Shown piece by piece: positions 349 through 63,707 of a stretch of 64,000 bases of DNA. Made by a program: the position numbers and the translations under genes. The first letter of the stretch is position 1, and every line of letters begins with the position of its first letter. The notes below the pieces were generated by a model that saw only the letters and a program-made list of their open reading frames with translations, was not told the DNA's origin and made no database searches. This DNA is from Amoebophrya sp. A120 (taxonomy: Eukaryota; Protista; Dinoflagellata): the NCBI GenBank assembly GCA_905178155.1, contig CAJINV010000006.1:3030860-3094859 (forward strand). The letters are read 5' to 3'.

Positions 349-1111
349 GTTTTTGCTGGACACCAAAAAGTGCCTGCAGATGGAGCTGAAGCGCAACACC
401 GGGATATCCTGGGTAAAAACGTCCCCGTACCAGAGTCAAGATGGGAAATCTGCTAGACAAATCAACCAGCTTTGGTTGCTTCGCATGACGAATTTGTCCT
501 TGTAGTGCAATCCTGTTTAAGTATTTCAGCAGCATCACAGATCTAGCATATCGTGCTGCTTCTAGCGTCACAAGTTCCACGACAAGACTAGAAAATGCTT
601 CTCATGGGGCTCCGCATGAGAAACCTTTTTGGCATGCAGATTTGCATGACACCCCTGGCGTGGGGACATCTTTAATCAGGATACGGAATCGGGTGGACAC
701 GGTCGCTGAAGATTCTGAAACACTTAGAATGCTATCTATTGCAAATATGTCTGAGTCTGGAAGGTTGCAAATTTGTGATGCTGTCTCTGGATTGCAAAAA
801 GATTTGTATTGCATGAGTGACCAGCAAGAGGAGTCCAGTTGCTGCTACGCGGGGAGAACATTTCTCATGCGGAATAGGCATCACGAAGCCCGCTAAGAAT
901 CTGTGATGCTAGGTTATGCATGACAGGCATCATGGGTCATGCAAAATTGGCATGACAGACCTGGCAATCTTCCAGACCACATCCCGGGATGTTTGCGATG
1001 CATAAATGCCACGTTCGCACGAAGGGTCCGCCATGCAACCAGCAGTTCCGCGAGAAATGTGCAAAAATTGCGTGGATGCTCAAGTCCACACAAGGCCCTA
1101 CTCGACCGTGA
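349..1111 (+). CDS. 3' part of a uS13-like (probably mitochondrial) ribosomal protein; 5' end outside window
   Basis: Removing 405-683 and 733-1004 (+ one DR each) gives FLLDTKKCLQMELKRNTGIGWTRSLKILKHLECHVRTKGPPCNQQFREKCAKIAWMLKSTQGPTRP*; GIGxTRSxxIL resembles the uS13 H2TH motif. Confidence 0.6.
405..683. mobile_element. Introner family E (279 bp)
   Basis: TIR tatcctgggtaaaaacgtcccc...ggggacatctttaatcaggata; DR cggga/cggaa. Confidence 0.9.
733..1004. mobile_element. Introner family B (272 bp)
   Basis: TIR tatctattgcaaatatgtctgagtctggaa...; DR aatgc. Confidence 0.9.
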
Positions 1112-1934
1112 ATATGCTGCGAAATAAAAGCGTGAAAATAAATTCGCTGATTACTTACTTTTCTATAGACTTGCCGTTGTGTTTGATCCACCAACTATCA
1201 TGCGTCACATACCAGAACTTCAACCTGTAGGACTAGGTACATTACACGACCCCGGCTGTTGAACACGCCAGCCGCTCCGCGCAGTGAGGGTTTTAGGATT
1301 TATTAAGGGATTTCGACAGCACTTTTTAGGTAATTTTTTTCAACGTGTTACCAGAATCAGACGCAGCTCCGCATGACAGCAGGTTTTTCCTGCCATGCGA
1401 ATCGAACCTGTGATGCTGCTCAGTTGTCGAAGGAACGATATTTCAAGTACATGGCGTCACGGTCAGACAATGGAGAGAGAGGACTCTACCCGGGGTAATA
1501 AGTAGACTGATCCAGAAGAGCGATCATGGCCCGGCGTTTAATTGCCCCGCTTGGGAGTCGAGGTGTTGATGGCGCGAAATGTGGCAACAGGTGAGTGAAA
1601 GAAGTGATGAAGCAGTGCTGTCAAACGAGATGAAGACGGAGCGCTGGCCACATACCAGCGCCATGAGAGGTTTTTTTCAAGAAGTAGATAGATCCTGCAT
1701 GGTGCAGGAGCGTTTTGGTTTTGTTAATTTTTTATGGTTTGATTTTTTGCTATTGGTTCCTGGTCCTGCAGGGGTGCAGGAAGACAGCAGAATATACATG
1801 TACAAGTACTTGCACCTACTCGCACGTCGTGATTGAAGTAGCAGAAATTTTTTTGATGAGTTTATAGTATGACAAAAAAGGGCTAGGACAAGTACTAAAC
1901 TGTAACTACGACCATCTGCGGTCTCTATCAAACT

Positions 1935-4900
1935 ATGCGTGCGTCTGCCTTCTTTTCCAAAACATTGCTCGCCAAAAAAGCGGCGGCGCCCGGTGCAGTG
2001 GCGCCCCACGTTGCCTCGGAATGCCTGTCACCCCGTAGCAAGTTACTGTCCTCCGGCACGACCACTACGTCGTCAGGCGGCAGCTGTGGCACGACAAGCG
2101 GCAGGAGTCCCACCAGAACAGAAAGTGATGCTGGGGGTTCTTCTACCACTGGAACAAAACAAGTTTCTGCCTTTGATTCCACCGAAGACGAATTCTTTGC
2201 TCGCAATAGTACCGCAACTACCGGTAGCAGCACGACTACAAGGAGTAGCAGAACCGCATCGCCGCTGGGTGTCGTAACCCGATCAAGTTCCTCCCCGGGC
2301 AAAACGAAGCTGGAAGAGATTCGCGATGCGGCTCGGCAACGGAGAGAAGAAAGGCGGATCAGCGTGTCGTCGACGTCTGCGAGTAGTACGACAAGCCCCC
2401 TTGCCCTCTATGAGAATATGCACAACTCCCATGTGCCCCTCATTTGTCATGCCAAAGCCCCAATTCAATCGCTGCGTTGTCAGACTGTTTGCATCACAAA
2501 TTCAGGAAGCGCAAGCAGTACTACTTACACCAGGCGCAAGATGAACTTGTAATGCACAGGCTCGATGTGTGTTGGTGTTTGTATTGCTGTTCGTGCCATG
2601 CAAATGAGGGGGAGGGGGAGTTGTGCACTCGCATACCCTCCGGAGCAGGGGCAGAAGTGGAACAACAGCATCAACAACTTCGACCCCGTCACCGTCCTCT
2701 GAGTTACGATATAATCCTGCTCTTCAAGGCGCAGCGGAGGACGCAGGTACTCTAATGTATTATTCGTATTTATTTTAGATCACAGGAAGAAGAAAACCAC
2801 ATGCAAATCCGTTCTTGAATGATCATCCATCGGTTTTTGTTTTTTTTAGCGGTGCTGGACGAGTATTTCAATTCTTTTATTTCGGTCTAGAAAAATCACA
2901 ATCAGCCTCCTCCGCCGGAACAACGGCCGCTGTCGCGTCGGCGCAAGAAGAAGAAGGACGACAGCTAAAAAACGTTGGAGCAGCGGCAGGTAGAGCATCT
3001 GTGCAGCAGACCCCAGAAGTGCTACGTACGGAAGACCTTTCGACGTTCAAGGCGGAACTACACGGCGCCAAGGGTCCGGAATTCCTTCAAGAACGAGAAC
3101 CACAACAGCTGCATGATCCGAAGACAAAAAAACTCAACGCTGCACCACCACCACCACCGCAAGAGTTTTTACTTGGCCAGGAAAATGTTGATGCGCGGGA
3201 ACATCTTCAACGTGGTCCAGATACAGAAGCTCCGCTGATGCTGGAAAACTACCTGCTGCGACCGCACTACCGCGTCCTGCCATCGTTTGCTACTCGACGA
3301 CGCGAAGCAGAAGTAGATGTTGACCTAGGGCAACAAGACCGAACAATCGTCGGGAGTTGTACTAGTGCTGACCACACGGCGGCTGGTGATCTCAAAAACA
3401 ATTACAACGACCCCGACGATATCTCACGAAAAAACTGTTTCACTGTGATGATTTTGCAAGTTTTGCATTACAAGTTTGTTCTGCATCACAGAGAAAATTT
3501 GCCATGCGAGATTCCTAAGGGAAAACAAAGCTAAAAAGCCATTGTCTTGCATGTGTAGCAAGACAAACACTTGTGAAATACATTTTCTGCATTACAAGTT
3601 TACAGTGAAACAGTTTTTTCTGGCGATAGACGAGCACCAGGAGCTAGTATCCTCGTCGTACTCGCGGGAGGTTTTCGTGACCACGGGAAGGAGCGGAAAA
3701 ACCTGTTTCACCGTATCGCAAGAAAAAACTGCTTCACTGTAAACTTGTGATGCACAAAATGGAACACAGAAATATTTGTCTTGCTACACATGCAAGAAAG
3801 TGGATTTTTAGCAGTGTTTTCCCTTAGGAAGCACGCATGGCAAGTTTTCTTGGTCATGCGTAAGGAACTTGTAATGCAAAAGTTGCAATCATCCTTACAG
3901 TGAAACACCTTTTTCGTACGATACACCGTGCACGAAGAAGAATACCTGAACGACGAGCGACGGCTCTATTTCGAGCGGCATATGAACTGCAAAAGCATCG
4001 TACTAGTATAAATTGCATTACAAATTGGCTTAGCATTACAAATTCAATCTGTAATGCGGATTTGCCTATAACAAAAAGATTTGTAATGCATAAATGCAAA
4101 ATTTAGTACGAGTGCGATACTTTTGCAGTGCATACGGCAGCAGAAGTACCAAATCCGCCCGCACGAAAACATCTGGTGCAGCTATGACAAGCACGGTTTT
4201 AATATGGCAAAAAACACAGGAGCACGATCTTCTAATTCTTGTCATCCGGCACTGCATCAGCATCCACACGTCGACCCAATCAATAACCGCGGTACAACAT
4301 CACTATCCGCGCCGAAACTAGACGACTTTTGCGAGCGGTACAAAGACGCTTCGCTCATCTTGCGGCTCCGCAGCGGCCTGATCGCTGGGTTTGACACATT
4401 GTTCGGGATCGGTGGTTTAACGGGAAGCACAACAGTATGCATCGCAAAAGTATCGTACTCGTACAGTGCACATCAATCATGCATAGACAAATCTCCTTTC
4501 CAAGCTAAATCAGCATGACAAACTCAAACTCCTCCGTCTGTCATGCTGAGCGAAGTTGTACTGGATTTGTTGTTCCTAGTACGATACTGTTGCAATGCAT
4601 AAGCGGCCGGCGGGGGACGAGAAAAAGTCTGCGAGAAACATCAGCAGCACAGCGGATTTTTTTTCAATAATCCACCTTCCGGTCTCATCCAGAGGTTTAA
4701 GCAGTTTCGAGCAAGAATGCACGAAAAAGTCTACGGATCTATCCTGTGCAAAAGTATCGTACTCGTACTAATTGCAGATATGCATTTACAAATTTCTTGC
4801 TCAAGTCAAAGCCGCATTACAAATTCTATTTCGCATGCTGGGGCAATTTGTCATGCGATTTGTACTAGTACGATGCTTTTGCAATGCATAGGATCCTTCA

Positions 4901-5707
4901 AACAGCAAAAGTTCGGAGTTCTGGAGAAAAACAACTCCTTGACGATGCCGCTCACGCACTTCTGCCCCAAATTATGCAAGAAAAAAACTTCTGTGTAGGT
5001 GCAAGTGTAAGTCTGTGATGCAGAAAATGGAAAACAGATACAACTGCCATGCCAGTTGTAGACACCCATGAAGTATATAGAAATCCTCTTTTCGTGTGTG
5101 TTTTCAAGTACTAAGTAGTACTAGTAGGAGTGCATGAAAATAAACTTTCTGTGTCAGCATAGTGCGGAGGAAGTTGTTTGTTGTCATGCTCTCTCACAAC
5201 TCGAAGACAATGACGCCTCCACTAACACAGTTTTTTCCTCGGATACAAATGGCTTCTCGGCCATTACGTTTCCCGTTATTTTTCCGGTGTGGTAGATTAT
5301 TTCGCATCTCCGTCCGGAACAAATGCGGACGATCCGGAAATATCAATTGCAAATATGTCTGGGTCTGGAACATGGCAATCTGTCATGCCAAATCTGAATC
5401 ATACAAAAATCTGTGTTGCAGGATTACCAAAAGCTGGCCACTTTTCACCAAGTGGGTAGGGCGTTTCTCATGCAGAATAGGCATGATAGAGGTCTCACAG
5501 AATCTGTCATGCTAGGTTCTGCATTCCAGACCTCATGCGTCATGTAACACCTGCGTCACAAGTTTGCATCTTTCCAGACCCAGACATATTTGCAATGCAT
5601 AGGAAAAATCTTTAACGGGAACAAGATTTGGATTTCTACCTGCTTCCTCGCCGCAGCGGTATCCAAGAGAAAAAGATGAAAGCTGCGTTTTGACGTACTC
5701 GTATTGA
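1935..5707 (+). CDS. Hypothetical protein, Ser/Thr-rich N-terminus; 8 introners plus one GT-AG intron (2747-2890)
   Basis: Continuous frame from ATG 1935 to TGA 5707 once elements and one DR each are removed (...HEEEYLNDERRLYFERQQKYQIRPHENIWCSYDKHGF...). Confidence 0.8.
2409..2635. mobile_element. Introner family D (227 bp)
   Basis: TIR tatgagaatatgcacaactcccatg...gagggggagttgtgcactcgcata; DR ccctc. Confidence 0.9.
3420..3628. mobile_element. Introner family F (209 bp)
   Basis: TIR tatctcacgaaaaaactgtttcactgt...acagtgaaacagttttttctggcgata; DR gacga. Confidence 0.92.
3714..3923. mobile_element. Introner family F (210 bp), opposite orientation to 3420
   Basis: TIR tatcgcaagaaaaaactgcttcactgt; DR caccg. 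Confidence 0.92.
3981..4134. mobile_element. Introner family A (154 bp)
   Basis: TIR tatgaactgcaaaagcatcgtact...agtgcgatacttttgcagtgcata; DR cggca. Confidence 0.92.
4436..4601. mobile_element. Introner family A, diverged (166 bp)
   Basis: A-type TIRs; decayed DR aacag/agcgg; frame restored. Confidence 0.8.
4740..4890. mobile_element. Introner family A (151 bp)
   Basis: A-type TIRs; DR ggatc. Confidence 0.92.
4973..5245. mobile_element. Introner family C, diverged/expanded (273 bp)
   Basis: tatgcaagaaaaaaactt...acacagttttttcctcggata; DR caaat. Confidence 0.85.
5341..5601. mobile_element. Introner family B (261 bp)
   Basis: TIR tatcaattgcaaatatgtctgggtctggaa...ttccagacccagacatatttgcaatgcata; DR ggaaa. 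Confidence 0.92.
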
Positions 5708-7244
5708 AAACATGAGTTTTTACTAAAAAGTGCGCATCTGTATTTTTATGTTGTACAGCATGCAACTTGTTGACGATTATGTTATGCGCCTGATGGTCAT
5801 GGGCATGCTCTAATGATAGAAACCACGTGAGCTGCGAGAGGTAAACTTCTGTGAGGCACTTACTACCACCGAAAGAGCGCAGTTTTTTGTCTGCATACCC
5901 GGCGGCTGAAAATAGCGAACTGTCCAGCACACAACCGCTTTTCAGCAGCGACCCCCACTCGAGCAGGTGAGGAACAAGATAACCGTGCTGGTAGTTGTTC
6001 CTACTTCACTCAGCTTCTCACGACGGCGCCGCTCGGTGCTAGCAGCAGGACCTCCACGGGAGCTGCACCAAGAGCCCGCGACTTTTTCTCCTCCTGGGCT
6101 GCAACATCTAGGAATAATTCCGCGGACGACCAGTACGTCTCCCCTCCTGCGGGGGTCGTGCTGTCGTGCTGAAGTTGGATTTTGATTTGGAGTTGTACGC
6201 GAATATGACCACACAGTTCTTGTGCATTGCCTTGTAATTGAAAACGAAGCACTTACAGTTACAACATTTCTCGATAATTGAAGTAGTGTGCTCCTGTGAT
6301 TCGAGACATTTAATGAGCACGACGAGATCAAGATCAAGTTGAAGACGCCTGCAATGGTAGTCTACTTACCACTGGTACTGTTGTGGTTTGATGAATATGG
6401 AAGCTCGTTTTTCGTCTTCATCAAGAGCAATGATGACAGCGCGACGGCATACGCGAAGAAAAATATTTGATGAAGTAAGTAAGTAATTATAAATGGAGTA
6501 CGCGAGCAGGAACGTCGGCAGTAGATGGAGTAGTTGTAGGTCGGCTGCACTTGCTGGATACTCAAAACGCTGATGTTCATCTCCTGCTTGGGAACGTGCT
6601 TCTACTGTTTCCACCCAAGCGTGGTTCGTTGTTGCTGCGAAGATCATAAGAACTACAAGACCGCTTTGACAGGAGCTGTTCTCGCACGTGTTTTGGTTCT
6701 TTTCCAATTCGAATTCCAACAAGTACATAGCTTTAAAACTATATCCGTTCGAGCTGTTGGTCGCGGACGCAGGAGCAGAACTAGAAGCCACTGCACTACT
6801 TTGCATAACTTGCAGTACAACTCGAGGAACTCCATCACAAAGTTCGTTCTAATCCTCAATCGATTCTCCCATTACTCCTTCCTGACGACTACACTAGGGA
6901 CAGTGACAGATGATCACGCGGCTTGGAGATGCTCTCGGATCCGTCAGTTCGACAAAGATAGAGTTTCTACTTCTACTTCTATCACACGACCATGATCGAT
7001 CAACAGAGCTCTATTCACTACACTAGCCAGTACATAATCTATCAGCGACATCTCTTTGTCTTATTCTCGGCGTTTTCTTTCTTTTGTTTATCGGCGCAAC
7101 TTGTAGAAGTGTCTGGTCGTACTGGAAAGACTTATGAATAAAAGTTATCATGTGTGTCTTTTCTCTGATGTTTTTCCGTCCATATGAAGATACTAGCATG
7201 TAGTTACAATAGCAAGATTGGAAAGAAAGTTTTATCACAAGAAG

Positions 7245-8793
7245 ATGTCCTCCTCCTCCCAAAGTAACAAAACGACGTCGGGAAAAGCCAACCCCACTGA
7301 TGCCAACCCGCGTGAACCCGGCGGAAAAAAAGGAGCAAAAGCGACCACGGCGACGTCTGGGGCATCCAAGAACCTCACTCGACCTGTCACCGTAGCACCC
7401 AGCATGGCCGCCCGCCGGGTGCCGGACTCCATGCGGACGAGCGCGGAGGACCGGGAACAAGGAACACTTGGGAGTAGAATGATGATGTCTTCCCGAGGAC
7501 CGGTAACTGATATTAACGACGCTGCACAACAACCACCAAATAACGGCCGTGGACAACCTTTCTCATCTGCTAAAGCCGCAAGTAGCAGCAGTGCGGACAA
7601 GACAAACGACGCCAACAGAAGAACGCCGACGCCGAAGCAGGGAGACCAACGAAACGGACTGACTATGCATTGCAAATGCAAAAGCATCGTACTAGTAGAA
7701 AGCGCATGACAAATTCGTTCAGCATGACAAATGGAATTTGTCATGCTGTTTTCCCTTGGGATGGAAGTTTGTAATGCATGATTGCGATAATTACTACGAG
7801 TGCGATACTTTTATTTTTGCACAGGATACTGACTTTCATGTACGGGAAATGGGTGGACATGGAACGCTCGCTGGTCAAGGATGTGTTCCCCCCCGAAGTC
7901 GTACAAGAAGTGCAGGACCAGCTGAACGCTTACCGGGCGGAAAGAGTATCCTGTGCAAAAGTATCGTACTCGTAGAAATTGCATATGCATTACAAATTTT
8001 TTTCTCAAGGTGAATCCGCATTACAAATTTTATTTCTCATGCTGAGAAAATTTGTAATGCATTCATACGAGTACGATACTTTTGCAATTCATAAAGAGCC
8101 GCCACGGACCACTCCTACGCACAGGAGCTGCGGGAGCGCGAGCGGATCCAGGGGACATTGTGGCAGAAGAGGTACCAGGAGCTAGAGGAAGATTTCAAAA
8201 CCCTGGACCTCGTGGCAAAAACCGATCTTCGAGAATTGCCATTGAAGGTGGGACAGGCCGCCAAATTGCAGGAGGGTAACCGAAGCATCAAAGGCAGGGA
8301 ACAACAACAAGATTGGACCATTTTCTGTCCGGATAGCGAGACCCGGAATCGGTGTCTCACCTATCACACCCTGTTCGTCGACGCGCCCGCACTGCGTGGC
8401 ATACCAGACGAGAAGTGGCGGGTGCCGGGACAGCCGGGCTATTTGGTTCCCAAGGGGATGGCCGGGCGGCGCATGAACAGCAGGGACGAGGATGTGTATG
8501 GACCGGAAGGAACTTCTACTACGAGTGTAATATTAAAGCAGCCACAACTGGATGGGAATGATCGCGAGAAAAGGAGCAGCAACGAACAAGACGAGGAAGC
8601 GCAGATAAACCCTGTTGACAACTTCAACTTCTCGCAGGTCCAGCTGACCGACTTGAAGGCGCTGAAGGTGAAGTTCACAGACTGGGCGCGGTGGGCGGTA
8701 AACAGCGGAGCCTGGACCATGACCAGGAGGGGAAAAAAACTGGCGTCGTTCGAAGAAGCGATCAAAAAGGATAGAAAGACAAAGCCGGTATGA
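7245..8793 (+). CDS. Hypothetical protein; 2 introners
   Basis: ORFs 7218, 7778 and 8158 join in frame after removing 7664-7828 and 7947-8093. Confidence 0.8.
7664..7828. mobile_element. Introner family A (165 bp)
   Basis: A-type TIRs; DR ctgac. Confidence 0.9.
7947..8093. mobile_element. Introner family A (147 bp)
   Basis: A-type TIRs; DR aagag. Confidence 0.92.
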
Positions 8794-8992
8794 AATAAAA
8801 ACGAAATTTGGTCGTGGTCGTGTGTGTGTATTGCTGTGTCTGTTTATGTATGATGAATTCTCGACATTGCAACACTTCATTATGTGATTCGACCACGACA
8901 AGAATCTAATGCTTCGTGGTGTTGCGGTCTAATAAGGTGTGCAAGAAGATGATGAAAGACAAAGAGTATAGAGAGAGAGACGACCTGATGTC

Positions 8993-10981: not shown

Positions 10982-11277
10982 TGATAGAATTTGAAGTCAA
11001 TGATCTATAAGTAGATGCACAGTTCATCGCATTGATGCCCCAGGAGACCACGAACGATTACGATTAGTAGGGGCCAGGCTCCTCGTTGCACCGTGGCCCG
11101 CACGGTCATTTGCGATGTCAGAATTATAGGAACACGGCACGAACGAAATAAGCAAGACACGACTTTTTTCTGTAATATACAGGGAATAAAGGTGACCAGT
11201 GTCAAGATCAACTTGTACGAAACGGTAAAGAGAACGACGACGACGACGGGAAGATCTTACCAGGTGGCACCACCTGC

Positions 11278-45417: not shown

Positions 45418-45518
45418 CACCTGCTCGGGCTACAAGCTGTCGCGGGACATTCTGCACAGCCTCGCTTTTTTGGTGATCATCGTGGCGGTAAACTTCAACC
45501 TGCACTCGCTGGGGATTC

Positions 45519-46330: not shown

Positions 46331-46400
46331 CAGGAATGCGCAATGAACGTGGCTGCACCAGGCTGCTCGAAGTGACGAGTCTGCCACCACCGAAATGATC

Positions 46401-53400: not shown

Positions 53401-56400
53401 GGCAGATTGTAAGCCTGTTGAGGGGTAGAAACTGAGCTGCTAAAGCAGCATGACAAAAGACGTCTTCCTTACCCAAACAGCATGAGAGACTGGATTTCGG
53501 GGCTACCCAAATTTGTCATGCGCCACTTGGAAACTGGGCTCCAACTGGCATCCGTTTTATGCATCACAAATTATTTCAACTTTGACGATTTCAATCCTGA
53601 CACTACCATACTTCTTTTCAGCACGAAGTGGCGGTTTTCGGACCAGTATCCTGTGCAAAAGCATCGCACTCGTAGTAATTGCGTTTATGCATTACAAATT
53701 TCTTTCTCAAGGCAAATCAGCATTACAAACTGAATTTGTAATGCTGGGGGAATTTGTAATGCAATTTCTACTACTACGATACAGTACTTTTGCAGTTCAT
53801 AACCAGCTGATCCGAAATGATCAGAGCGGTCTATCCGGTGCAAAAGTATCGTACTCGTATTGCAATCATGCATTACAAATCCTTTTGCTACGGTAAATCT
53901 GCATTACAAACGGACAAAAATCTATGGAGAAACATCATCAGCGGCATTAGTTACGGCACAGCAAGATCATCATCATCATCTTCTTTTTCTTCTACATCCT
54001 CTACATCTCTATTTCCAGCTCGAAATACTACTACTACTACTACTACAACATCATCTTCATCTTCCTCCTCAGCAGCGATGTCGTTTCAATCAACAACAGC
54101 AAGTGATAGAATACCGATCCAGGCTTTAATGAGACTACAAGGTCGCAAAAGGATATTCTAAGGCGACAGCGCCGAGCAGAATAAATTCATCAAATCTGCA
54201 TTACAAATTTTATTTCTCATGCTGAGGAGATTTGTGATGCATTTATACGAGTACGATACTTTTGCAGGTCATACGCTCTGCAAAACGACGAAAGTATCCC
54301 AGAATACCGCCGCGCGCAGTACCTGCTGTACCGCTTTCGGGGAAACATCCCCCGAGGCTACCTGCACCTCGTGCTGACAACCGCGTTTTTTTACAAGGCC
54401 TTCTCGAACTACCTCAACGTGGTTCACTACGAATACTTGGAGCAAGACTTTGTGAAGACGCAGGCGGTATGCATTGCAAATATGTCTGGGTCCGGAATAA
54501 ACCTGTGATACTGCGCTGCGCATAATTGAAGCGCTTCCGCTTGCAATGGTAGCCAAGCATGACATGTTTTTCAGACGCCTTTTTAATGTCTAGCACGCAT
54601 TAGCATTACAAATCGCGTTTTTGCATGACATAGGAAGCTCCTCTTCCGCTGCGCATGCAACACAAATTTTCCAGGAATGCAAGACACGCATTACAGGTTC
54701 CACTTTTTCAGACCCAGACATCTTTGCATTTGATAGGCGGAGCTGGCCCGAGACCAGGAGCGCGACAGTGCGGACGGACGCATCCCGCTGTATCAACTGT
54801 AAAAATGTCTGGGTCTGGAGGAATTCATATTTGTCATGCTTGTCTGGCATGACTCTTAAATCTGTCATGCACGAAACCCAAGAGCTCCGTTATTCTGTGA
54901 TGCAGAAGCGCAGTTTGTCATGCAGAATAGGCAACACCTAGAAGGAGCTCAGAAACTTGTCATGCTGAGCCAGCATCTGTAGCCTCATCATGAGACGCCA
55001 CCCAGCATCACAAGTTTCCAGACATCCAGGGATTTTTACATTTGGTACACTGGTGCACTTGACATCCAAGGACGAACGAAAAGCCGCAAGCACTTCTTAT
55101 GCAAGAAAAAAACTGTGTAAGTGTAAGTCTGTGATGCAAAAAATGCAAAACAGGTACACTTGTCATGCCAGACACCCATGAAGTCCTCTTTTCATGTGTG
55201 TTTTCACGTACTAGCATTGCATGACAGGCTTTCTCTCTCGTGCAGAGCAAATTTGTAATGCTGGCACTCCAAGAGACCTACACTAACACAGTTTTTTCCC
55301 TGGATACTTCTACTTTTTCATCTAAGCCTGAAGCAGACTATAGCAATGCCCCGGATGAACATAGTTCCAACATCGCACTCCAGATTTCCGAAACCGCGGT
55401 ATTGTTCCAGAAATTTCTCTTCGACTTTGTCCCCAAACTGTTTGAAAAGATCGAGACGATTGTGGAACTCGAGATTTTGTTGTTGTTATCGCAAGAAAAA
55501 ACTGCTTCACTGTGAACTTGTGATGCAGAAAATGGAATGCAGAACGATTTGCCTTGCTACACCTGCATAGAACAACACTGGAGTTTCAACCCGCGCATGG
55601 CAAGTTTTCTTTGTCATGTAGAACGAACTTGTGATGCGAAACTCGCAAAATCGTTACAGTGAAAGAACACTTTTTTCTCACGATAGTTGTTTGCCCTGGG
55701 TTGGAAGATTCTGCGGCGACGGCTGAATATGACAGAAATTCGATTTCTGCTCGGGATCGGCGTAATTAGTTTCTACCTGGCGATTTTTGTATCAAGTGTA
55801 AAAATGTCTGGCTCTGGAAGAATGCAAGATTTGCCATGCATATTTTGCATAACCCATGATGCCTGTAATGCATGACCGAGCATCACAGATTTTTAAAGGG
55901 CCTCCTGATGCGTATTCCGCATGAGAAACGCCCAGTCCGCGTAGCACAAACTGCACTCCTCTTGCTGGTCATGCAATACAGATTTTTTTTACCTTCCAAA
56001 GACAGCATCACAAGTTGCAATGTTCCAGACCCAGACATTTTTGCATATTGATACTTTGAGCTCACGTGCCAAACCACGAGCACCCTATCCACTGCAGAAG
56101 TATCTGATACTCGTATAAATGCAAGTTTGGCATTACAAATCTCGTTTCCGAGGCAAATCAGCATGACAAATTGCATTTCTACTCATGCTGAGCGAGAATG
56201 TAATGTAATCCATACTAGTACGACACTTTTGCAGTTCATACACCTGCTCGGGCTACAAGCTGTCGCGGGACATTCTGCACAGCCTCGCTTTTTTGGTGAT
56301 CATCGTGGCGGTAAACTTCAACCTGCACTCGCTGGGGATTCTATCAAATGCAAAAATGTCTGGGTCTGGAAAGCTGTGATGCTGAGTTGTGCATGATTGA

Positions 56401-58261
56401 AGCGCGTTCAAAGGCAGCCAAGCATGACAAGTTCTTCAGACGCCTGCTGATGCCTAGCACGCATTACAAATTACGTTTTTGCATGACAAAGGAAGCCCCT
56501 CTTTTGCTGCCCATGCAACACAGATTTTCCACGAATGCAAGACACGCATTACAAGTTCCACTTTTCCAGACCCAGACACTTTTGCATTTGATAGATTCAA
56601 GTAAGCGACAACACGGTCACCTCCGTCCTCAACGCCTACGGGCCGGGCAACCCTGTCCCGGAGCTGCCGCGGTTGTATATGCATTGCAAAAGTATCGACT
56701 AGTGCTTGTAGTAATCGCATTACAAATTAGCGCAGCATGATGACAAATGGAATTTCTCATGCTGATTCACCTTGGGAACGAGATCTGTAATGCATGACTG
56801 CGATCAGAAGTACGAGCGCGATGCTTGCTTTTGCGCAGGATATTCCACCGAAAGCGGCAAATGTACTGGCAGCTCCGGGTGATTTTTCTGTACTACTATC
56901 AGAATGAAGAATCCCCCCTCCCCATATCAAAACGAGTTTTCTGATGCTGGATTTGCGTACACAAATCAGATTTGTCTTGCTGGCGAGGACAGAAGACCCA
57001 TAATATCGAGCCTGAGGAGACAGGTTTTGGCCTTGGCGCTTTGCATGACAGACGTCCACACTGTAGGCGCAAGAGCATGACAAACCGCCCTTAGAACGCG
57101 GCGGAGCCTGTGGAATTGGAATTGCCTTCATGCAACACAGAGACGATCTGTGGTCACAAATCAGCAACGCAAACTTTCGAAAACGTGCCTTGTCAATTTG
57201 GGGAGACGGGATTTTTCCTTTTGATAACTACCTGCTACTGCCCACGGTGTTGCTGTTCCTCTCCATCACAGTCATCGGCGGGGGGACGTATGACACCGGC
57301 GGCGTGAACAGCTCGGACTGGCAGAGCTACTGGATTTACGTGGCCTTGAAGGAGTTCGGGTCTTGGCTGCTTCTGGCAATGCTGGCGTACAGTTTTCGGC
57401 CGGACGGATCAAAATTCATGATTTTCTCGGAGGTGGTGAATGAAGAGAATAACGGCACGGCCGGCTTGAATAGCGAAGACGATTCGGAAGCGGGGGAGGA
57501 ATTCGAGCAACAAGAGGGAGTTCTAGAAACTGCGCCAGCAACAAATATATGAAATGCAAAAGCATCGTACCAGTATGAATTGCAATACAAATTGGTATTG
57601 GCTCAGCATTACAAATTGAATTTGTAATGCGGATTTGCCCTGACAAAAAAATTTGTAATGCATAAACGCAATTAGTACGAGTACGATACTTTTGCACAGG
57701 ATAAAATACAAATACAGCCGTCGCATCCAATGGAGGACGAGACCACCACCAACCGGCAGGAGGGTCATCTACTATCGTGAAAAAAAAAGTGTTACAGTTA
57801 CACACCCTAATGGGGGACAAGCAAGACAGACTACCTCTGTCATGCAGGAAATGCTTGCCAGCCTCATTTCATTCGTGTTTTCCTTTATAGTCTGCGAACC
57901 TTCACAGGTTTTTTTGGTTTTCTTAGCCATGTCGAGCAATTTACTTTGTGATGCAGAAACTCCAACAACTGTGTAACTGTAACGCTTTTTTCGTTCGATA
58001 TCTACGTCTAGTAGAAGAGTAGTCGAGGGGACGGTTGTTGACCCTTTTCCAGCGGACTCGTTCTCATTATGCTCTGCAAAAGTATCGTACTCGTACTCGT
58101 AGTAATCGCTGTTATGCATGACAAATCTCGTTACTGAGGTACTAAAACAGCATTACAAATTTCATTTGTAATGCTAAGCCAATTTGTGATGCAATTACTG
58201 CTAGTAAGTACGATGCTTTTGCAGTTCATGCTCATCTACCGCGAACTACGATGCGGAGTGA
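50463..58261 (+). CDS. GOST-family seven-transmembrane protein (GPR107/GPR108/GPR180-like); 22 introners
   Basis: Signal peptide, luminal domain ending GYVEMRNP, LTIQQELLPKVF, HLVLTTAFFYK, ILLLFALGWKILRRRL, FLYYLLLP, LAYSFRP; one open frame after removing all 22 elements. Confidence 0.85.
50796..51108. mobile_element. Introner family E (313 bp)
   Basis: E-type TIRs; DR agttg/agctg. Confidence 0.9.
51224..51432. mobile_element. Introner family C (209 bp), ends ACA
   Basis: C-type TIRs; DR ccttt/cgttt. Confidence 0.9.
51652..51977. mobile_element. Introner family I (326 bp)
   Basis: catcaaaaggaaaaatccccc...gggggatttttcctctcaata; DR tcaag. Confidence 0.9.
52030..52250. mobile_element. Introner family C, diverged (221 bp)
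   Basis: tatccaagaa...ttcttggata; DR gaaaa. Confidence 0.88.
52446..52594. mobile_element. Introner family A (149 bp)
   Basis: A-type TIRs; DR ccacg. Confidence 0.93.
52628..52951. mobile_element. Introner family I (324 bp)
   Basis: I-type TIRs; DR gctgc/gttgc. Confidence 0.88.
53010..53287. mobile_element. Introner family G (278 bp)
   Basis: G-type TIRs; DR tgttc. Confidence 0.9.
53304..53610. mobile_element. Introner family J (307 bp)
   Basis: tatgggggcgtcaggattgaaatcgtca...tgacgatttcaatcctgacactaccata; DR cttct. Confidence 0.92.
53647..53801. mobile_element. Introner family A (155 bp)
   Basis: A-type TIRs; DR accag. Confidence 0.92.
53832..54273. mobile_element. Introner family A with ~280-bp internal insert (442 bp)
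   Basis: DR cggtc/cgctc; insert 53911-54191 flanked by 16-bp duplication aaatctgcattacaaa. Confidence 0.88.
54468..54735. mobile_element. Introner family B (268 bp), absent in duplicate copy
   Basis: B-type TIRs; DR ggcgg. Confidence 0.92.
54791..55047. mobile_element. Introner family B (257 bp), absent in duplicate copy
   Basis: B-type TIRs; DR cgctg/cactg. Confidence 0.88.
55098..55306. mobile_element. Introner family C (209 bp)
   Basis: C-type TIRs; DR cttct. Confidence 0.92.
55487..55685. mobile_element. Introner family F (199 bp), absent in duplicate copy
   Basis: F-type TIRs; DR gttgt. Confidence 0.92.
55790..56053. mobile_element. Introner family B (264 bp), absent in duplicate copy
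   Basis: B-type TIRs; DR ttttg/ctttg. Confidence 0.92.
56086..56240. mobile_element. Introner family A (155 bp)
   Basis: A-type TIRs; DR caccc/cacct. Confidence 0.9.
56342..56593. mobile_element. Introner family B (252 bp)
   Basis: B-type TIRs; DR gattc. Confidence 0.93.
56678..56842. mobile_element. Introner family A (165 bp)
   Basis: A-type TIRs; decayed DR ttgta/ttcca. Confidence 0.85.
56897..57226. mobile_element. Introner family I (330 bp)
   Basis: I-type TIRs; DR actac. Confidence 0.9.
57548..57703. mobile_element. Introner family A (156 bp)
   Basis: A-type TIRs; DR aaata. Confidence 0.92.
57773..58000. mobile_element. Introner family K (228 bp)
   Basis: tatcgtgaaaaaaaaagtgttacagttacaca...tgtgtaactgtaacgcttttttcgttcgata; DR tctac. 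Confidence 0.92.
58068..58230. mobile_element. Introner family A (163 bp), ends ATG
   Basis: A-type TIRs; DR ctcat. Confidence 0.9.
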
Positions 58262-59073
58262 CAAATCATGCCACTCCATCTTCTGTCGTGATGTGGCCTC
58301 CTATGCCTCTTGATCCTGGAAAAAGTTGCAGCAGTGATATAGAATCGAAAACTGTTCGTGCTGAACATCATGACTGTACGTAAAATTTTTTTGACGATGC
58401 AGGGCCTATTTCAGGCTGAATTTTTGGTCTTGTATGTTGCCGTCCTCCACCACCCGTAAGGGCTGCGCTTGCCGCGTTACTATTTTTGCTACATGAACAT
58501 CAATGGCGCTGCTGAAGCTGATCACGATATTGCGTGCCGTAGGGGACGTTGAAAGCGAACGGAATAGGGCATCTTCGTGTCGTGGTGTGTTCAACGTTGT
58601 ACTAGTCTGTCAAAAGTACTGTCATTGCTTGGGTGGGTAGCAACAGCTACAAGAACTTAACTGGATTGAAGATGTTGAGGGGTAAACAAGAGGTTTTTGT
58701 ACTGCTACTGGGCTAAAAGTTGTACTTAAAACGAGAAGGAACTATACGTGGTGATGTCTTCAGTCTAAGCACGTGGGAGGATCTATCAGAAGGGGTAAGA
58801 AGTACTAGCAACAGGAGTATTAACAGCAGGGATAAATAAAAAGCCACCACCAGCTCTAAACTTAGATGATGATGATCAAAGTACAGAAATAGAACCGTGC
58901 TGTGTGTTGTTGTTTTTGCTTCTTCTTGTTTCATGATCGATAAGTTCATTCGTTACGTCGATGTCATGTCGAAGTCATAGATGGAATAAAGGTATGTAGG
59001 ATTGAAGTCGTGACACACAACGACCGTTAATTGAAGTACATTCGCTGTAGTTCTACCAAATAAGCAGAAAAAA

Positions 59074-62000
59074 ATGCCAACGCCAAATACCGCGACCGCG
59101 TGGGAGTACCCACTCTCAAAAAATGAAAAGGAGCGCATGATTGCGCACGCTTACCAGAATGAAATACAGTTGGCCAATATGGATTACAGAAAAAGTTGTA
59201 GATCGTAACAGTACATGAACACAAGATTTTGGTTTTTGCACGAATTGATGGAAGCTCAGCATGGTGAAGACTTGAATTTGTAATGCGGGGGACTCACGTA
59301 AGACTTGTCCTTGTGCTGTAGTTGTGATGCATATAGTACTTGCATCAATTACAACTACGAGTTGTACAAACGAGACAACTTTCTTTGCCCTGGATACCCA
59401 ACGAAGAGAAGAGGATGGACGAGACAGTGGTAAAACGCAAAATAGTTTTGTTTCTGATGCGCTGTATGCATGACATAGACATTCAGGTTCATCTTGAACA
59501 TGCTGCCTGCGCATGACAAGTTGGTTCAATACATCAAAACTCTATCAGATACACACACTGAAGACAATGAACGAAAAGTTGGAGCTCGAGCTAGATTACG
59601 CCTTGCAAAAGTATCGTACTAAGTAGAAATAGCATCACAATTTTTTCCAGAAGGAAAAGTTGAATTTGTAATGCCAAACTAGGTAAGAAGCCAGATCTGT
59701 CATGCTGTGCTGCTATATGTACGAGTGCGATGCTTTTGCATTCGATACAGAAAACACCACGAAGCGGGCGAAGCGACAGCATTTTCGTCTGTCGTTTGGT
59801 GAGCCGATCGAAAAAGGAGAGATGATCGACAATCCGGACCTCGAAAAGGCCTACGACGAGCTTGATACGTTTGAAGGGGTGCCGAGCAAAGCGGAAGAGA
59901 TAAAGGAGCAAGAAACTACCACGGCAATAAAAAATTCCCAGCCGATAAACAGCCCTGAGCCGAAAATGGGAGCAGCTACAAATGGAAACAGTACTTCCAG
60001 CACGCCCGCGGCGAATGGAGGTACAACTACATGCGCAGGCGGTGGAAGTACTACTTCATCTAGTAGCTCATCTTCCTCCTCATCGTCATCTGCAGCGCCC
60101 TATGAACTGCAAAAGTCTCGTACTCGTCGTATAAATGCATGACAAATTTCCTCAGCACGAGAGATAAAATTTGTAATGCGGATGTACCTTAAGATAAAGA
60201 TTTGTAATGCATGAATGCAATACGTATACGAGTGCGATACTTTTGCACAGGATACGTCCGATAGCTGGACCCTAGTGGAGGATGAGGAAACATCAAATGT
60301 GCTGCGTTATCGTAAGGAAAAATCCCCTCTCCCCATATCGAGGAGAAAATTTGTGATGCTGATTTGTGATGGTGTTGATGACCACAAATCAGCTTTGTCT
60401 TGCGTGTTGTGGTGCAGCGAGTCTGTCATGCGTTTTCGCCTATCTCAGATTTGTTTCTCATGCTCAGCTGCTAGCCGGATGCATAGGCATACCCAAATGG
60501 TCAGCTTAGAATGTGCCGACAAGCTGCTCTTGCTGCAATAGAAAGCTCATCTGTGTACACAAATCCAGCAATGCAAATTATCTTTTGAACATGGCCATGG
60601 GGTGGAGGCTCTTTTCACTTTGATATGCCTGGTCCCACGCTGTCGTCAACGTCATCCTCCTCGAGTCGTAGTACTACTACGACCGCCGGCACCAATAGAA
60701 CATCATCTCCATCACGAGCAGCCGGGGGCGGGCCAGGGGCAAATAAAAACGGCGCCGGGGCAGCAAGTGACGTGGTGGTGATCCCCAAATCAACGCTGTA
60801 CTACATGTATGCGCTGCAAAAGGTATAAGTTGAAGTATCGCACAATGGAAATTTTCTCACGAACACAAATGTCGCAAGTTGTCATGCTAGAACAGGTAGA
60901 AAGTTATAGATTTGTCATGCCTTATTGCAAATGCAGTTACTACGAGCAGGAGCACGATACATCAACTTTTGCAGACGATAACATGGTCTGCGCCGGCTGC
61001 ATAGCGGGGCTATTGCTGCTGGTCTGCTGTGTGTTTGTGGCGGTGATGATATGACAGTACACAAAAATTCTTCCTCGTCGGCCCCCCTCATAGTCATGTG
61101 TCATGCAAAAGCACAAGGCTAGCCGCGCTGGCGTTGCCTTGTTGTAGCGTCATCTCGCATCTTGGAATTTTTGCGAAGTGAAGTTGCACTTCACTTGCAA
61201 CATCACCGTAAATACGCACAGGTACAGGAATAGGCAGCTCTGCATAGTTTTAATTCCACGCAAGGACGGGGAGGGGGGATCATGCTTGTGCACTCTCATA
61301 GACCGTTCTGTACTACTACAAACCCGACACGCTCTTCGCGTCTATACCTAGTACAGGTTCACCAGCTGCTGGCCATCAAACTACAAGCACGATAAACCAG
61401 GAAGCACTCTCGGACGCCAACACGCGAGCGCGGTATGAAAGCCTCGGGTTGGAAATCCTCAAAGTGGAAATAATTTGTAATGCAAAAAAACGACGCCAGT
61501 TGAAGCGCCACTTGTAGGCGGGGCATGACAAATTTCCCGGACACTTAACGCACGTCTCCTGTCATGCTCATGCAGGTTAAGGGAAAGGGGTGCCTTTCTG
61601 TCGTGCTAAGCAGCACCTCAATTCTTCGCCCCTAGCAGGATAATAGCCGGCCTCCATTGCGTCCTCTGCAATACAGTTTTTTTTGCGTCGCATTTCATGC
61701 ATCACAAATTATTTCCACTTTGAGGATTTCCATTCTGAGGCTTTCATACGCGGAGTGTCCCGAATTCTCCGAGGTTTGTTATGACCCGCTCAAGCGTAGT
61801 TACAATCTCAGATCGGTTACCATAGAGTCTGGGTTTTGTATTGCATGATGAGCATGACAGACTCGGACAGCATTCCCCGTTCTGCAATACAAATTTCGCC
61901 AGATTGTGCTGAGGATTGGGACTCCATAACTTGCCATGCGCAATCCTATGAGAGGTGGCTAGATAATGCACTTCTTGCAACACAAATTCCAGATTCTATT

Positions 62001-63007
62001 GTAACGTTCGGGATTGTAAGACCTGAGCAGGTTATATTTGTACCGAACGAAGACGCGGTTTCTGACAACGCGGACTACTTGAAAGTAAAGCACGAGATCG
62101 AACACCAGCAGATGTTGAGTAGTACTAGCAAAGTAGTACTAAGAACAGATGCAACAATAGACGAAGAGCAAGAAGACTCGCCTGCGCCGCTGTTCCCCTC
62201 CATCGATCCGCCCGCGAACCAGAACACGTTTCAACCCACGTGGAGCATAAAAGGCGGTTCGTATCAGAAGGGAAAAAACGGCTTCGGAGGCTCCTCTGCG
62301 TACGAATATGCATTGCAAAGGCATCGTACCTCCAGTAGTGATTGCAATACAAATTTGCTTAGCATGACAAACGAAATTTGTAATGCTGTTTTACGTCAGG
62401 AAGGAGATTGGTCATGCAAAACAGCAATTACTACGAGTGCGATACTTTTGCAGAGCATAACGAATTTTCCGGTACGATCCAGCAGGAAGTGGATCGCGCT
62501 CTCACGTTTTTCGGGAAGGGCCAGTGCATATGAATTGCAAAAGTGGTCTTGCAGCTATACATTACAAATCTAGTTGTTAAGGGAAATCCGCATTGCAAAT
62601 TCAATGTGTAATGCTGAGCCAATTTGTTCTTCTTGGTTTATTCTTGTTTTGCAATTTATAGTATACGTAGTGCGATAGCGATACTTCTTTTGCAAAGGAT
62701 AGCGCAATGAGTCGGCGGACCGGCTCTACGCCCTCCTGCGCAGCAACCTGACCGATGTGGTGTGGCGGCCGAAAATTTTGCGGTATGGCACGGAAAAAGT
62801 GTTACAGTTACACACATAGTCTATGCAGGCCAAGCAAGACAGACAAGCTCTGTCATGCCGGATATGCATAGGAGCCCCGTTTCATAGGTGTTTTGCCGTA
62901 GGATTTCTGCATTGCAAGTTTTCTCTCTCATGCAGAGAAGTTTGTGTTGCTGAATTGACTACAAATGTGTAACTGTAACACTTTTTTCGTGGGACATGCG
63001 GGTATAG
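59074..63007 (+). CDS. Hypothetical single-pass membrane protein; 11 introners plus GT-AG intron 59430-59548; start uncertain
   Basis: MPTPNTATAWEYP ... MVCAGCIAGLLLLVCCVFVAVM (TM) ... LTDVVWRPKILRV* after element removal. Confidence 0.7.
59178..59396. mobile_element. Degenerate family C introner (219 bp)
   Basis: tatggattacagaaaaagttgt...acaactttctttgccctggata; DR gccaa/cccaa. Confidence 0.75.
59597..59747. mobile_element. Introner family A, diverged (151 bp)
   Basis: Starts TAC; DR tagat/cagaa. Confidence 0.8.
60101..60254. mobile_element. Introner family A (154 bp)
   Basis: A-type TIRs; DR cgccc/cgtcc. Confidence 0.9.
60308..60625. mobile_element. Introner family I (318 bp)
   Basis: Opposite orientation to 52628; DR tgcgt/tgcct. 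Confidence 0.88.
60808..60980. mobile_element. Degenerate family A introner (173 bp)
   Basis: tatgcgctgcaaaag...cttttgcagacgata; DR acatg. Confidence 0.82.
61050..61300. mobile_element. Degenerate family D introner (251 bp)
   Basis: tatgacagtacacaa...ttgtgcactctcata; decayed DR gatga/gaccg. Confidence 0.78.
61434..61748. mobile_element. Introner family J (315 bp)
   Basis: ~50-bp TIR; DR cgcgg. Confidence 0.92.
61780..62036. mobile_element. Introner family G (257 bp), opposite orientation to 11744
   Basis: G-type TIRs; DR tttgt. Confidence 0.92.
62307..62459. mobile_element. Introner family A (153 bp)
   Basis: A-type TIRs; DR acgaa. Confidence 0.9.
62529..62701. mobile_element. Introner family A, diverged (173 bp)
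   Basis: A-like TIRs; DR gtgca/gcgca. Confidence 0.82.
62784..62996. mobile_element. Introner family K (213 bp), ends ACA
   Basis: K-type TIRs; DR tgcgg. Confidence 0.9.
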
Positions 63008-63231
63008 TATAAGTAGTACTCTTCGTCGCGTTGTAAAATATCGAGATTATATTCCTGTACATGTTGTAGGTTTTCTAGGAAGATGATGTTGTAAAATGTA
63101 ATTCGAAATTAAATCCATGTTCAGGAACCTCCAGAGCCACTCCTGCTTCTAATTGTCTACTTATTTTCACGATGCTCTCGCTCACTAACTATTCTGCAAG
63201 ACGAATTGGAATTGTTCCGCTTCTATCATGA

Positions 63232-63639
63232 TTGGGAGTACTCAAAAACAAAATATTAATATACACCAAATTATGCTATCAGAACTACGGCTACACCCTG
63301 TTCTGTTCAACGCCGCCCCGGTATGAAAGTGCACAACTCCCCCTCCCCCTCATTTCTCATGCAAAATTCCAAGTCCACCCTTAGCCTGTCAGTACTGTTT
63401 GCATGACAGATTCCGGAATCCAAAACAGCACTACAATCCTCTATGAATTTGTGATGCAAAAGCTGCATCTTTGCCAGCGCTTGTGTTGCTGTTCATGCAA
63501 CACAAATGAGGGGGAGGGGGAGTTGTGCATTCTCATACCCGGAAACCCGAGGCCTTGGAAGCGTTTGAGACCGCCTACAAGTTCGGCAACGAGAAGCACC
63601 CAAGATGGACCTGGAACCTGCTCGGTTACATTTACGCAA
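63232..63639 (+). CDS. Fragment of a TPR-like protein gene (ends not resolved)
   Basis: After removing 63322-63537: YQNYGYTLFCSTPPRKPEALEAFETAYKFGNEKHPRWTWNLLGYIYA, a TPR-like pattern. Confidence 0.5.
63322..63537. mobile_element. Introner family D (216 bp)
   Basis: D-type TIRs; DR cccgg. Confidence 0.93.
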
Positions 63640-63707
63640 TATGCATTGCAAAAGCATCGTACTCGCATAAATGCATGACAAATTTCATCAGCATGGGAAA
63701 TGAAATT
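63640..63707. mobile_element. Family A left half, interrupted
   Basis: tatgcattgcaaaagcatcgtactcg...; similarity ends abruptly at ~63707. Confidence 0.8.

What the first reader, a model, noticed from the sequence alone, without database searches (positions are those of the whole stretch)
349..63707. Multi-family system of TAT...ATA inverted-repeat elements that act as non-canonical introns
Seen: about 87 elements in about 12 families with distinct TIRs. Nearly all begin TAT, end ATA and are flanked by a 5-bp DR. Removing element plus one DR restores the frame, including inside conserved motifs of Rrp4, Isy1 and the 7-TM protein, and most offer no GT...AG pair at the boundaries. Known: non-canonical IR/DR-bearing introner elements are described in Amoebophrya, and introners in general can be MITE-like DNA transposons; to my knowledge the splicing route and mobiliser are unresolved. 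Inference: one cut-and-paste mobiliser making 5-bp target duplications, plus a structure-guided RNA excision route that reads the terminal hairpin. Programmed DNA-level excision (ciliate IES-like) cannot be excluded from this sequence alone.
Basis: partly seen in the sequence, partly recalled or inferred. Interest (0 to 1): 0.92.

Follow-up and report, generated by a model that had tools for sequence, protein, structure and literature searches.

The report
Amoebophrya transposon introns without splice signals
A quarter of this DNA consists of short jumping elements sitting inside genes, which only read correctly once each element plus five letters is cut out; they match the already published 'introner' elements of the marine parasite Amoebophrya, are likely spread by one kind of transposase and are likely removed from the RNA without normal splice signals.

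Summary
I curated 76 complete elements (129-442 bp, 26% of the window; about 88 with broken copies) in 10-15 families, nearly all TAT...ATA inside a 5-bp direct repeat. Removing element plus one repeat opens all 15 tested reading frames (one of 785 aa, 22 elements) and reproduces, letter for letter, a deposited Isy1 protein named Amoebophrya sp. A120. These are the introner elements of Farhat et al. 2021; 5-bp duplication, TA/TA termini and a Ginger-like candidate appear for one family in Gozashti et al. 2025. Added here: six filled/empty sites support a target duplication; all nine multi-copy families occur in both orientations; an internal 8-bp motif, often spaced 31-32 bp, is shared by all families, pointing to one mobiliser; the published 'diverse splice sites' are reproduced (r 0.97-0.99) by alignment ambiguity within the duplication alone, so the true junction is unmapped; a few mismatched duplications weakly place it after base 3 or 4. 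No selection for hairpin pairing was seen. No reads were obtained and no transposase was found. Already known; removal mechanism open.

The parts
405..63537 (.). Span of 76 complete TAT..ATA elements with 5-bp flanking repeats (26% of the window)
3981..4134 (.). Family A example (129-173 bp; 26 copies starting at 3981, 4436, 4740, 7664, 7947, 15146, 29886, 34108, 37540, 45076, 45256, 48190, 49143, 49332, 52446, 53647, 53832, 56086, 56678, 57548, 58068, 59597, 60101, 60808, 62307, 62529)
   Evidence: 14 vs 11 orientations among 25; 53832, which carries an insert, added by BLAST
3420..3628 (.). Family B example (199-273 bp; 14 copies at 3420, 3714, 4973, 27916, 28594, 29142, 45931, 46401, 51224, 52030, 55098, 55487, 57773, 62784)
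   Evidence: 4 vs 10 orientations
5341..5601 (.). Family C example (252-279 bp; 12 copies at 733, 5341, 9836, 25866, 36925, 37764, 39757, 47440, 54468, 54791, 55790, 56342)
   Evidence: 5 vs 7 orientations
27642..27864 (.). Family D example (216-251 bp; 7 copies at 2409, 10140, 22356, 27642, 36041, 61050, 63322)
21722..22006 (.). Family E example (279-313 bp; 5 copies at 405, 21722, 29438, 30088, 50796)
56897..57226 (.). Family F example (318-330 bp; 4 copies at 51652, 52628, 56897, 60308)
11744..12000 (.). Family G example (257-278 bp; 3 copies at 11744, 53010, 61780)
28167..28402 (.). Family H example (2 copies: 28167; 48777-49019 nested in a decayed element)
53304..53610 (.). Family I example (2 copies: 53304, 61434)
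59178..59396 (.). Family J, single copy
35933..38265 (+). Isy1 gene: 4 elements (36041, 36925, 37540, 37764) and 2 GT-AG introns (36549-36796, 37279-37488); the product equals P0001
36925..37193 (+). Element inside the conserved Isy1 motif; no extra or missing residue against P0002 and P0003; ends pair in a long stem (z = -5.1)
50424..58258 (+). Multi-pass membrane ('7-TM') gene: 22 elements, 785-codon open frame after removal, exons down to 11 nt; N-terminal half matches the C-terminal part of P0003; no Pfam hit for 7 exon ORFs
44810..46226 (+). Second, partial copy of the 7-TM gene (exons 94-100% identical) beside the 100-N gap; supplies four empty and two filled sites
14197..16008 (+). Rrp4 gene: GT-AG intron 14727-14980 and one element 15146-15295 (ends ATT) just after the S1 domain
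26581..30946 (+). Unidentified gene, 8 elements, 832-codon open frame after removal
59498..63004 (+). Unidentified gene, 10 elements, 433-codon open frame after removal
2779..5704 (+). Unidentified gene, 7 elements, 489-codon open frame after removal
42940..43291 (.). Decayed family-C-like element whose flanking repeat has 4 of 5 mismatches; the frame still opens on removing element + 5 nt (or 2, 8)
48419..49068 (.). Decayed element (TAC..ACA, 3 repeat mismatches) holding a nested family-H copy; removal + 5 nt gives a 356-codon frame
34108..34248 (.). One of only two complete elements outside coding sequence (the other is 46401-46609)
63640..63707 (.). Truncated family-A left end; other truncated pieces at 32-90, 135-348, 1365-1421, 25355-25402, 44736-44809, 45519-45639, 45740-45868, 46227-46328

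Best explanation
These are the introner elements of Amoebophrya sp. A120: short non-coding DNA transposons that sit in coding exons in either orientation inside a 5-bp target duplication, likely copied by one integrase-type (Ginger/IS3EU-like) transposase and likely cut out of the pre-mRNA by a modified spliceosome that recognises the symmetrical element ends rather than GT-AG. Step 1, shown: insertion duplicates five bases with almost no sequence preference. Step 2, inferred (about 65%): one clan of DDE transposase binds the common terminal signature (TAT, then an A-run at 11-14) and a shared internal 8-bp motif repeated at about three helical turns. Step 3, shown from reading frames and homologues: exactly element + 5 nt disappears from the coding product, restoring the pre-insertion protein. 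Step 4, inferred (about 85%): this happens in RNA. Step 5, inferred (about 55%): factors bound to the ends recruit a U1-independent spliceosome that cuts at a fixed distance inside the duplications, probably after base 3 or 4; after base 4 the terminal TAT would occupy positions +2 to +4 of a donor-like site.
For: Identity: exon 36274-36546 is 100% identical to P0001, named Amoebophrya sp. A120 by its source, and my removal rule reproduces all 309 residues; published A120 families start TAT + 7 nt + >=3 A, as in the terminal profile here. Target duplication: 6 of 6 empty sites in the duplicated 7-TM gene hold one copy of the 5-mer; 332 of 440 elements in loci L001-L145 have an exact 5-bp repeat, none 6-8 bp, flat base composition. 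DNA-type mobility: 9 of 9 multi-copy families in both orientations in + strand genes. One mobiliser: motif in 75 of 76 window elements (15.6 vs 0.9 per kb outside) and 427 of 429 in the loci, 228 of 510 same-orientation pairs at 31-32 bp, this spacing leading in 8 of 10 families; private changes in the motif (2.8%) are near the post-insertion rate that I estimate from repeat mismatches (5.2% per pair, roughly 3.5% per free copy) and below other interior sites (6.5%), as expected if the motif matters for copying more than for removal. Integrase-type candidates: A120 family 38, 'Ginger; 5-bp TSD, TA/TA termini', ORFs similar to Copia/Gypsy integrase; IS3EU/GingerRoot have TA..TA termini. Removal length: no indel at five junctions against P0003 and at the Isy1 motif. 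RNA level: published RNA-seq-supported non-canonical introns, spliceosome nearly complete, U1 not detected; canonical introns coexist in the same genes. Junction position: after base >=2 from 51224 (proline in P0003) and L036:6114-6451 (stop otherwise), >=3 from 45076 (serine at the empty site); first two bases of the 5' end changed in 3 of 552 against 11 of 551 at the 3' end (post hoc).
Against: No reads were obtained, so neither RNA-level removal nor the junction was observed here. No transposase in 70 window ORFs, 20 ORFs of 5 of the 7 long elements examined in the loci or 191 long ORFs of the loci; Farhat et al. found no transposase in A120 and rejected general transposase mobilisation. 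IS3EU usually makes 6-bp duplications and Gozashti et al. note that family 38 lacks Ginger homology, termini and duplications; I could not see family 38's sequence. Nothing selects for a spliceosomal signal: G before TAT in 84 of 284, GT-AG together in 6 of 284, terminal profiles the same at both ends, and elements ending ATT, ACA or starting CAT still sit in open frames. The junction bracket rests on three firm sites; the upper limit rests on two residue judgements from recalled motifs (L075:3211-3441, L060:8299-8577), and site 54791 points the other way but is a silent change.
Confidence: 0.55

Rival explanations
1. Same transposons, but removed from RNA by a non-spliceosomal endonuclease-ligase that measures a fixed distance from the terminal stem, as tRNA splicing does and as is suspected for euglenid non-conventional introns.
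For: No sequence requirement at any junction position; works in both orientations; ends pair with mean probability >=0.5 in 71 of 75 sense and 68 of 75 antisense folds; three copies with decayed repeats still follow the frame rule (61050, 42940, 48419); U1 not detected in A120; euglenid parallel described in PMC11282704.
Against: No excess of G-U over A-C mismatches in the sense strand (160 vs 203, p = 0.03 in the wrong direction, possibly strand-biased mutation); positions 4-7 of the stem are often unpaired; the spliceosome is present and active on neighbouring introns.
Confidence: 0.28
2. Programmed or transposase-driven DNA excision, repaired through the 5-bp repeat (ciliate IES/pointer-like), gives an expressed genome copy without the elements.
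For: Perfect restoration of the pre-insertion site, end symmetry and orientation independence are all natural for a DNA reaction; the 31-32 bp motif spacing fits DNA binding.
Against: No separate germline and somatic nuclei are known for Amoebophrya (own knowledge); a second record set also holds the elements in place at high density; copies whose repeat has decayed still fit the frame rule (three cases); mismatch patterns fit one free and one coding copy of the repeat and reject both being constrained at omega <= 0.2 (37 of 84 silent). Not tested with reads.
Confidence: 0.08
3. The published junctions are reverse-transcriptase template switches across a hairpin flanked by short repeats, and the elements are ordinary gene-disrupting MITEs.
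For: Hairpin plus direct repeat is the known substrate of such artefacts (PMC8240250, search listing only); all cited RNA evidence is cDNA-based as far as I read.
Against: Retention breaks 63 of 64 frames, including the conserved Isy1 and Rrp4 genes, whose exons remain intact and homologous on both sides; 73 of 75 elements lie in coding sequence. A cell must remove them.
Confidence: 0.02
4. The spliceosome uses both mimic sites at once (N|TAT as donor, ATAN| as acceptor), removing element + 2 nt and leaving one extra codon.
For: It keeps the frame and creates a stop at only 1 valid junction among those tested (two further stops there came from a mis-set frame); published donors are 69% NT and acceptors 68% AN.
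Against: P0001 has no extra residue at 4 of 4 junctions, and none appears against P0002 or P0003; the model fits the published counts worse (variation distance 0.31-0.33) than element + 5 with aligner choice (0.06-0.12).
Confidence: 0.04

Closest known systems
Amoebophrya sp. A120 introner elements / non-canonical introns (Farhat et al. 2021, PMC7789003)
   Same: Organism by protein identity; TAT + 7 nt + A-run termini, 3-5 nt direct repeats, about 240 nt, non-canonical boundaries, multi-family. This is the same system.
   Different: The paper gives variable repeat lengths and variable splice motifs and rejects transposase mobilisation; here the repeat is strictly 5 bp, the motif variety is reproduced by alignment ambiguity, and a shared internal motif links the families.
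A120 introner family 38 and other A120 families (Gozashti et al. 2025, PMC12130899, supplementary file 8)
   Same: TIR DNA elements; family 38 annotated 5-bp TSD, TA/TA termini, Ginger; unit lengths of about 149, 209, 260, 278 and 305-320 bp recur among the 58 A120 rows.
   Different: All but two of the 58 rows are superfamily 'Unknown' with automated duplications of 2-11 bp and mixed 'co-opt/carry' splice calls; family 38 is about 810 bp with ORFs, whereas no window element has a recognised ORF. No sequences were available to match families one to one.
IS3EU/GingerRoot and Ginger2 DNA transposons (PMC10045372)
   Same: TA..TA termini (IS3EU/GingerRoot); 4-5 bp duplication (Ginger2); integrase-type catalysis gives 4-6 bp staggered cuts.
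   Different: IS3EU usually duplicates 6 bp; no transposase found here; not known as introns in the passages read.
Micromonas and Aureococcus introner MITEs
   Same: Non-autonomous TIR/TSD elements that become introns and favour genes.
   Different: Those carry or co-opt canonical splice dinucleotides; here 6 of 284 have GT-AG at the best junction position and both orientations are removed.
Euglenid non-conventional introns
   Same: Terminal inverted repeats, TSD-like repeats, non-canonical junctions.
   Different: Different terminal consensus and a pyrimidine|purine junction preference; the A120 elements show no junction preference and share transposon-type internal motifs.

Membership tests
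Amoebophrya A120 introner elements | Host is Amoebophrya sp. A120 | tested here: met
   Isy1 product identical to P0001 over 309 aa; one gene only, assembly not determined
Amoebophrya A120 introner elements | Inverted repeat starts TAT, seven variable bases, then >=3 A | tested here: met
   against terminal profiles; families G, H, I lack the A-run
Amoebophrya A120 introner elements | 3-5 nt direct repeat at the boundaries | tested here: met
   5 bp exact in 53 of 76 and 332 of 440
Amoebophrya A120 introner elements | Repeated in families, non-canonical boundaries | tested here: met
Amoebophrya A120 introner elements | Absent from mature mRNA | tested here: inconclusive
   Indirect only: reading frames and a gene model from a transcript- and protein-guided pipeline; no reads obtained
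MITE (non-autonomous TIR DNA transposon) | TIRs, constant target-site duplication, no coding capacity, either orientation | tested here: met
MITE (non-autonomous TIR DNA transposon) | Cognate autonomous element with the same ends | tested here: inconclusive
   none in 64 kb plus 556 kb of partly overlapping loci; whole genome not held
IS3EU/GingerRoot superfamily | TA..TA termini | tested here: met
IS3EU/GingerRoot superfamily | 6-bp target duplication (usual) | tested here: not met
   5 bp; 0 of 76 and 0 of 440 exact at 6 bp
IS3EU/GingerRoot superfamily | Integrase-type DDE transposase phylogeny | not testable with these tools
   no transposase sequence obtained
Ginger2 | 4-5 bp duplication | tested here: met
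Ginger2 | TG..CA termini (recalled) | tested here: not met
   TGT start in 6 of 440, TAT in 422
U2 spliceosomal introns | GT/GC donor and AG acceptor | tested here: not met
   1 of 76 GT-AG, 6 of 76 with GC/GA; 6 of 284
U2 spliceosomal introns | Lariat with branch adenosine, snRNP dependence | not testable with these tools
   needs lariat reads or inhibition
Ciliate internal eliminated sequences | Removed from somatic DNA leaving one pointer | not tested
   no DNA reads obtained

The most novel reading that the evidence does not exclude
One transposon clan has acquired a host-run eraser that is not the spliceosome: a protein (possibly a domesticated transposase bound to the phased internal motif on DNA) marks any element in either orientation, and the transcript is cut and rejoined at a fixed distance inside the target duplication, with no junction sequence requirement. 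Tens of thousands of 'variable' A120 splice sites would then be one uniform reaction, a new intron class.
Probability: 0.25. Interest if true: 0.88.

Novelty: already known. Interest (0 to 1): 0.42.

Why it matters
The elements themselves are published, so the discovery value is low. What remains useful is that the removal reaction is still unexplained and is now simpler and directly testable: one rule (element + 5 nt), no junction sequence, both orientations. The reported variety of splice motifs appears to be a mapping artefact, and about a quarter of the elements have mismatched duplications, so existing RNA-seq can place the true cut. The shared internal motif gives a probe for the missing transposase. 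If removal is not spliceosomal, it would be a new way for transposons to become harmless inside coding sequence.

Tried and rejected
Own genome: not held. Reads: none obtained, so RNA and DNA-excision tests are open. Homologues of the 7-TM gene to fix the junction: none (the single hit P0004 is a repeat-driven false match); Isy1 relatives in metagenome contigs: 59 pattern hits, none confirmed. Elements in viral contigs: 0 for two terminal patterns. Rfam: 0 matches. Transposase: none; 7 elements over 400 bp in the loci carry cargo without recognised domains. Floating junction (both repeat copies coding): a first count of single mismatches suggested it (25 of 42 silent) but the pooled count, 37 of 84, fits a fixed junction. 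Element + 2 nt model: rejected. Internal motif as branch point: no strand bias (472 vs 496; 44 and 36 of 284 lack one orientation) and no side bias in decay, so not supported. Selection on hairpin pairing: not seen. Repeat-less elements in the loci as a test of repeat independence: 10 scored cases split 3/3/4 between frames, inconclusive. Pfam on 49 exons beside informative mismatches: only an NHL hit was useful. Earlier findings: none. Protein atlas gave no answer.

Full report
Observation. A scan for TAT..ATA pairs with terminal complementarity and a 5-bp flanking repeat gives 35 strong cases against none in 10 shuffles. Extending with a terminal profile gave 76 complete elements of 129-442 bp covering 26% of the window, plus three decayed and nine truncated pieces. 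The repeat is exact at 5 bp in 53 of 76 and never at 6-10 bp. The elements fall into 10 families at 62% identity or 15 at 66%.

Frames. 64 of the 76 lie in 15 ORFs on the + strand that I tested. Removing element + 5 nt leaves no stop in any; removing +3, +4 or +6 leaves stops in all 15; retaining a single element breaks the frame in 63 of 64 cases; the 22-element gene at 50424-58258 (785 codons) was open in 0 of 2000 random frame choices. ORF limits were chosen after removal, so the short ORFs carry little weight. Frames alone cannot tell +2, +5 and +8 apart; homologues do. The Isy1 product built by the rule equals P0001 over all 309 residues, and the motif cut by element 36925 aligns without gap to P0002 and P0003; five junctions of the 7-TM gene align without gap to P0003. 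The Rrp4 element lies just after the Pfam S1 match, not inside it.

Identity. P0001 is named Amoebophrya sp. A120 by its source. Farhat et al. 2021 (PMC7789003; seen: abstract, passages, sections 11, 12, 16, 20, 25, supplement passages and Table S4/S7 rows; figures and logos not seen) describe A120 introner elements with 8-20 nt inverted repeats starting TAT, 3-5 nt direct repeats, 29,850 copies, RNA-seq-supported junctions, U1 not detected, and border positions 'unknown'. Gozashti et al. 2025 (PMC12130899; seen: passages, section 6, 58 of 58 A120 rows of supplementary file 8 with long cells cut; files 13-14 not searched) class most families as TIR DNA of unknown superfamily and family 38 as Ginger-like with 5-bp duplication and TA/TA termini. 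Passages only were seen of PMC10045372, PMC12005148, PMC11282704 and PMC9860276; PMC8240250 only as a listing. The system is therefore known.

Insertion. A partial second copy of the 7-TM gene (exons 94-100% identical, next to an assembly gap, so paralogue or haplotype) differs in element content; at 6 of 6 sites the empty copy has the 5-mer once. All nine multi-copy families occur in both orientations, which argues for DNA transposition and against reverse splicing (inference). Of 440 distinct elements there, 332 have an exact 5-bp repeat, none 6-8 bp, with flat target composition and lengths spread over all three phases. 73 of 75 window elements are in coding sequence, which is 57% of the element-free window (coding limits partly depend on removal); gene bias is general for introners.

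Shared internal motif. GCA(T/A)NACA, in either orientation, occurs in 75 of 76 window elements, about 17 times more densely than outside, and in 427 of 429 elements of the loci; 228 of 510 same-orientation pairs within 70 bp are 31-32 bp apart, the leading spacing in 8 of 10 families. Three turns of B-DNA are 31.5 bp (established knowledge). It shows no bias to the transcribed strand. Against neighbour-derived ancestral bases in 443 elements, private changes are 2.8% in the motif, 6.5% elsewhere inside, 4.2% in the ends, with 5.2% mismatch between repeat copies; this fits conservation during copying and near-neutral decay afterwards, hence a transposase site (inference). I did not find the motif in print (searches; text search), but unseen figures may show it. 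No transposase was found.

Splice sites. Six junction positions inside the duplication give the same mRNA. A parameter-free model (TAT..ATA, random 5-bp duplication, element + 5 removed, aligner picks the position most like GT..AG) reproduces the 16-dinucleotide donor and acceptor counts published for the 9,716-copy family 2 with r = 0.97 and 0.98-0.99, better than any fixed position or the element + 2 model (assumes family 2 is of this type), and puts 8 of the 9 predominant A120 motifs of Table S4 among its top 12 pairs. The reported variety is thus likely a placement artefact and says nothing on the true cut. Among 284 oriented elements GT-AG coincides at best in 6. Mismatched duplications give a weak bracket: at least two bases of the left copy are kept at 51224 and L036, at least three at 45076; two recalled-motif judgements suggest at most three or four; site 54791 points the other way but is silent. 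Silent mismatches, 37 of 84, fit one coding and one free copy.

Removal mechanism. Ends pair in both orientations (z = -5.1 for one example), but G-U is not favoured over A-C in the sense strand, both ends decay alike apart from a slight extra conservation of the first two 5' bases, and three copies with decayed repeats still fit the frame. I commit to RNA-level removal by an end-recognising, U1-independent spliceosome cutting at a fixed distance (0.55 for the whole account), with an endonuclease-ligase as the main rival (0.28) and DNA excision unlikely but untested (0.08). No step of removal was observed directly.

Verdict. Real, already known, with a sharper description: interest 0.42; a new excision chemistry, if shown, would deserve about 0.88.

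Noticed in passing
window 30953-32157: Exact 47-bp direct repeat (30953-30999, 32111-32157) enclosing a 1.1-kb GC-rich stretch with a 12-bp tandem array and an inverted copy of it; two overlapping 295-aa minus-strand ORFs without Pfam hit. Possibly another mobile element.
   Followed up: partly
window 44740-46700: Partial duplicate of the 7-TM gene around the 100-N gap (45640-45739), with truncated elements at both edges and a 237-bp stretch 100% identical to 56226-56462; may be a haplotype or an assembly artefact.
   Followed up: partly
window 53832-54273: Family-A element carrying about 290 bp of foreign low-complexity sequence, still removed by the same rule.
   Followed up: partly
P0003: This 529-aa model fuses Isy1 to the N-terminal part of the 7-TM protein, suggesting that the two genes are neighbours in its source genome, whereas about 12 kb separate them here.
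   Followed up: partly
window 63720-64000: 11-bp tandem array with an inverted copy at the window end, directly after a truncated element.
   Followed up: no
L024:6184-6998 and L011:427-883: Long elements of two different families share a captured stretch of about 180 bp; L006:505-1608, L075:1561-2313 and L076:2085-3440 also carry cargo; no Pfam domain.
   Followed up: partly
L001-L145: 43 of 429 elements fit none of the ten window families (for example 109-127 bp and 150-175 bp types) yet keep TAT..ATA ends and mostly the internal motif.
   Followed up: partly
whole window: Every gene model found lies on the + strand, consistent with the co-oriented gene clusters reported for Amoebophrya.
   Followed up: no
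window 37279-37488: The canonical GT-AG Isy1 intron contains one copy of the elements' internal motif near its 3' end; it may be a decayed element.
   Followed up: no
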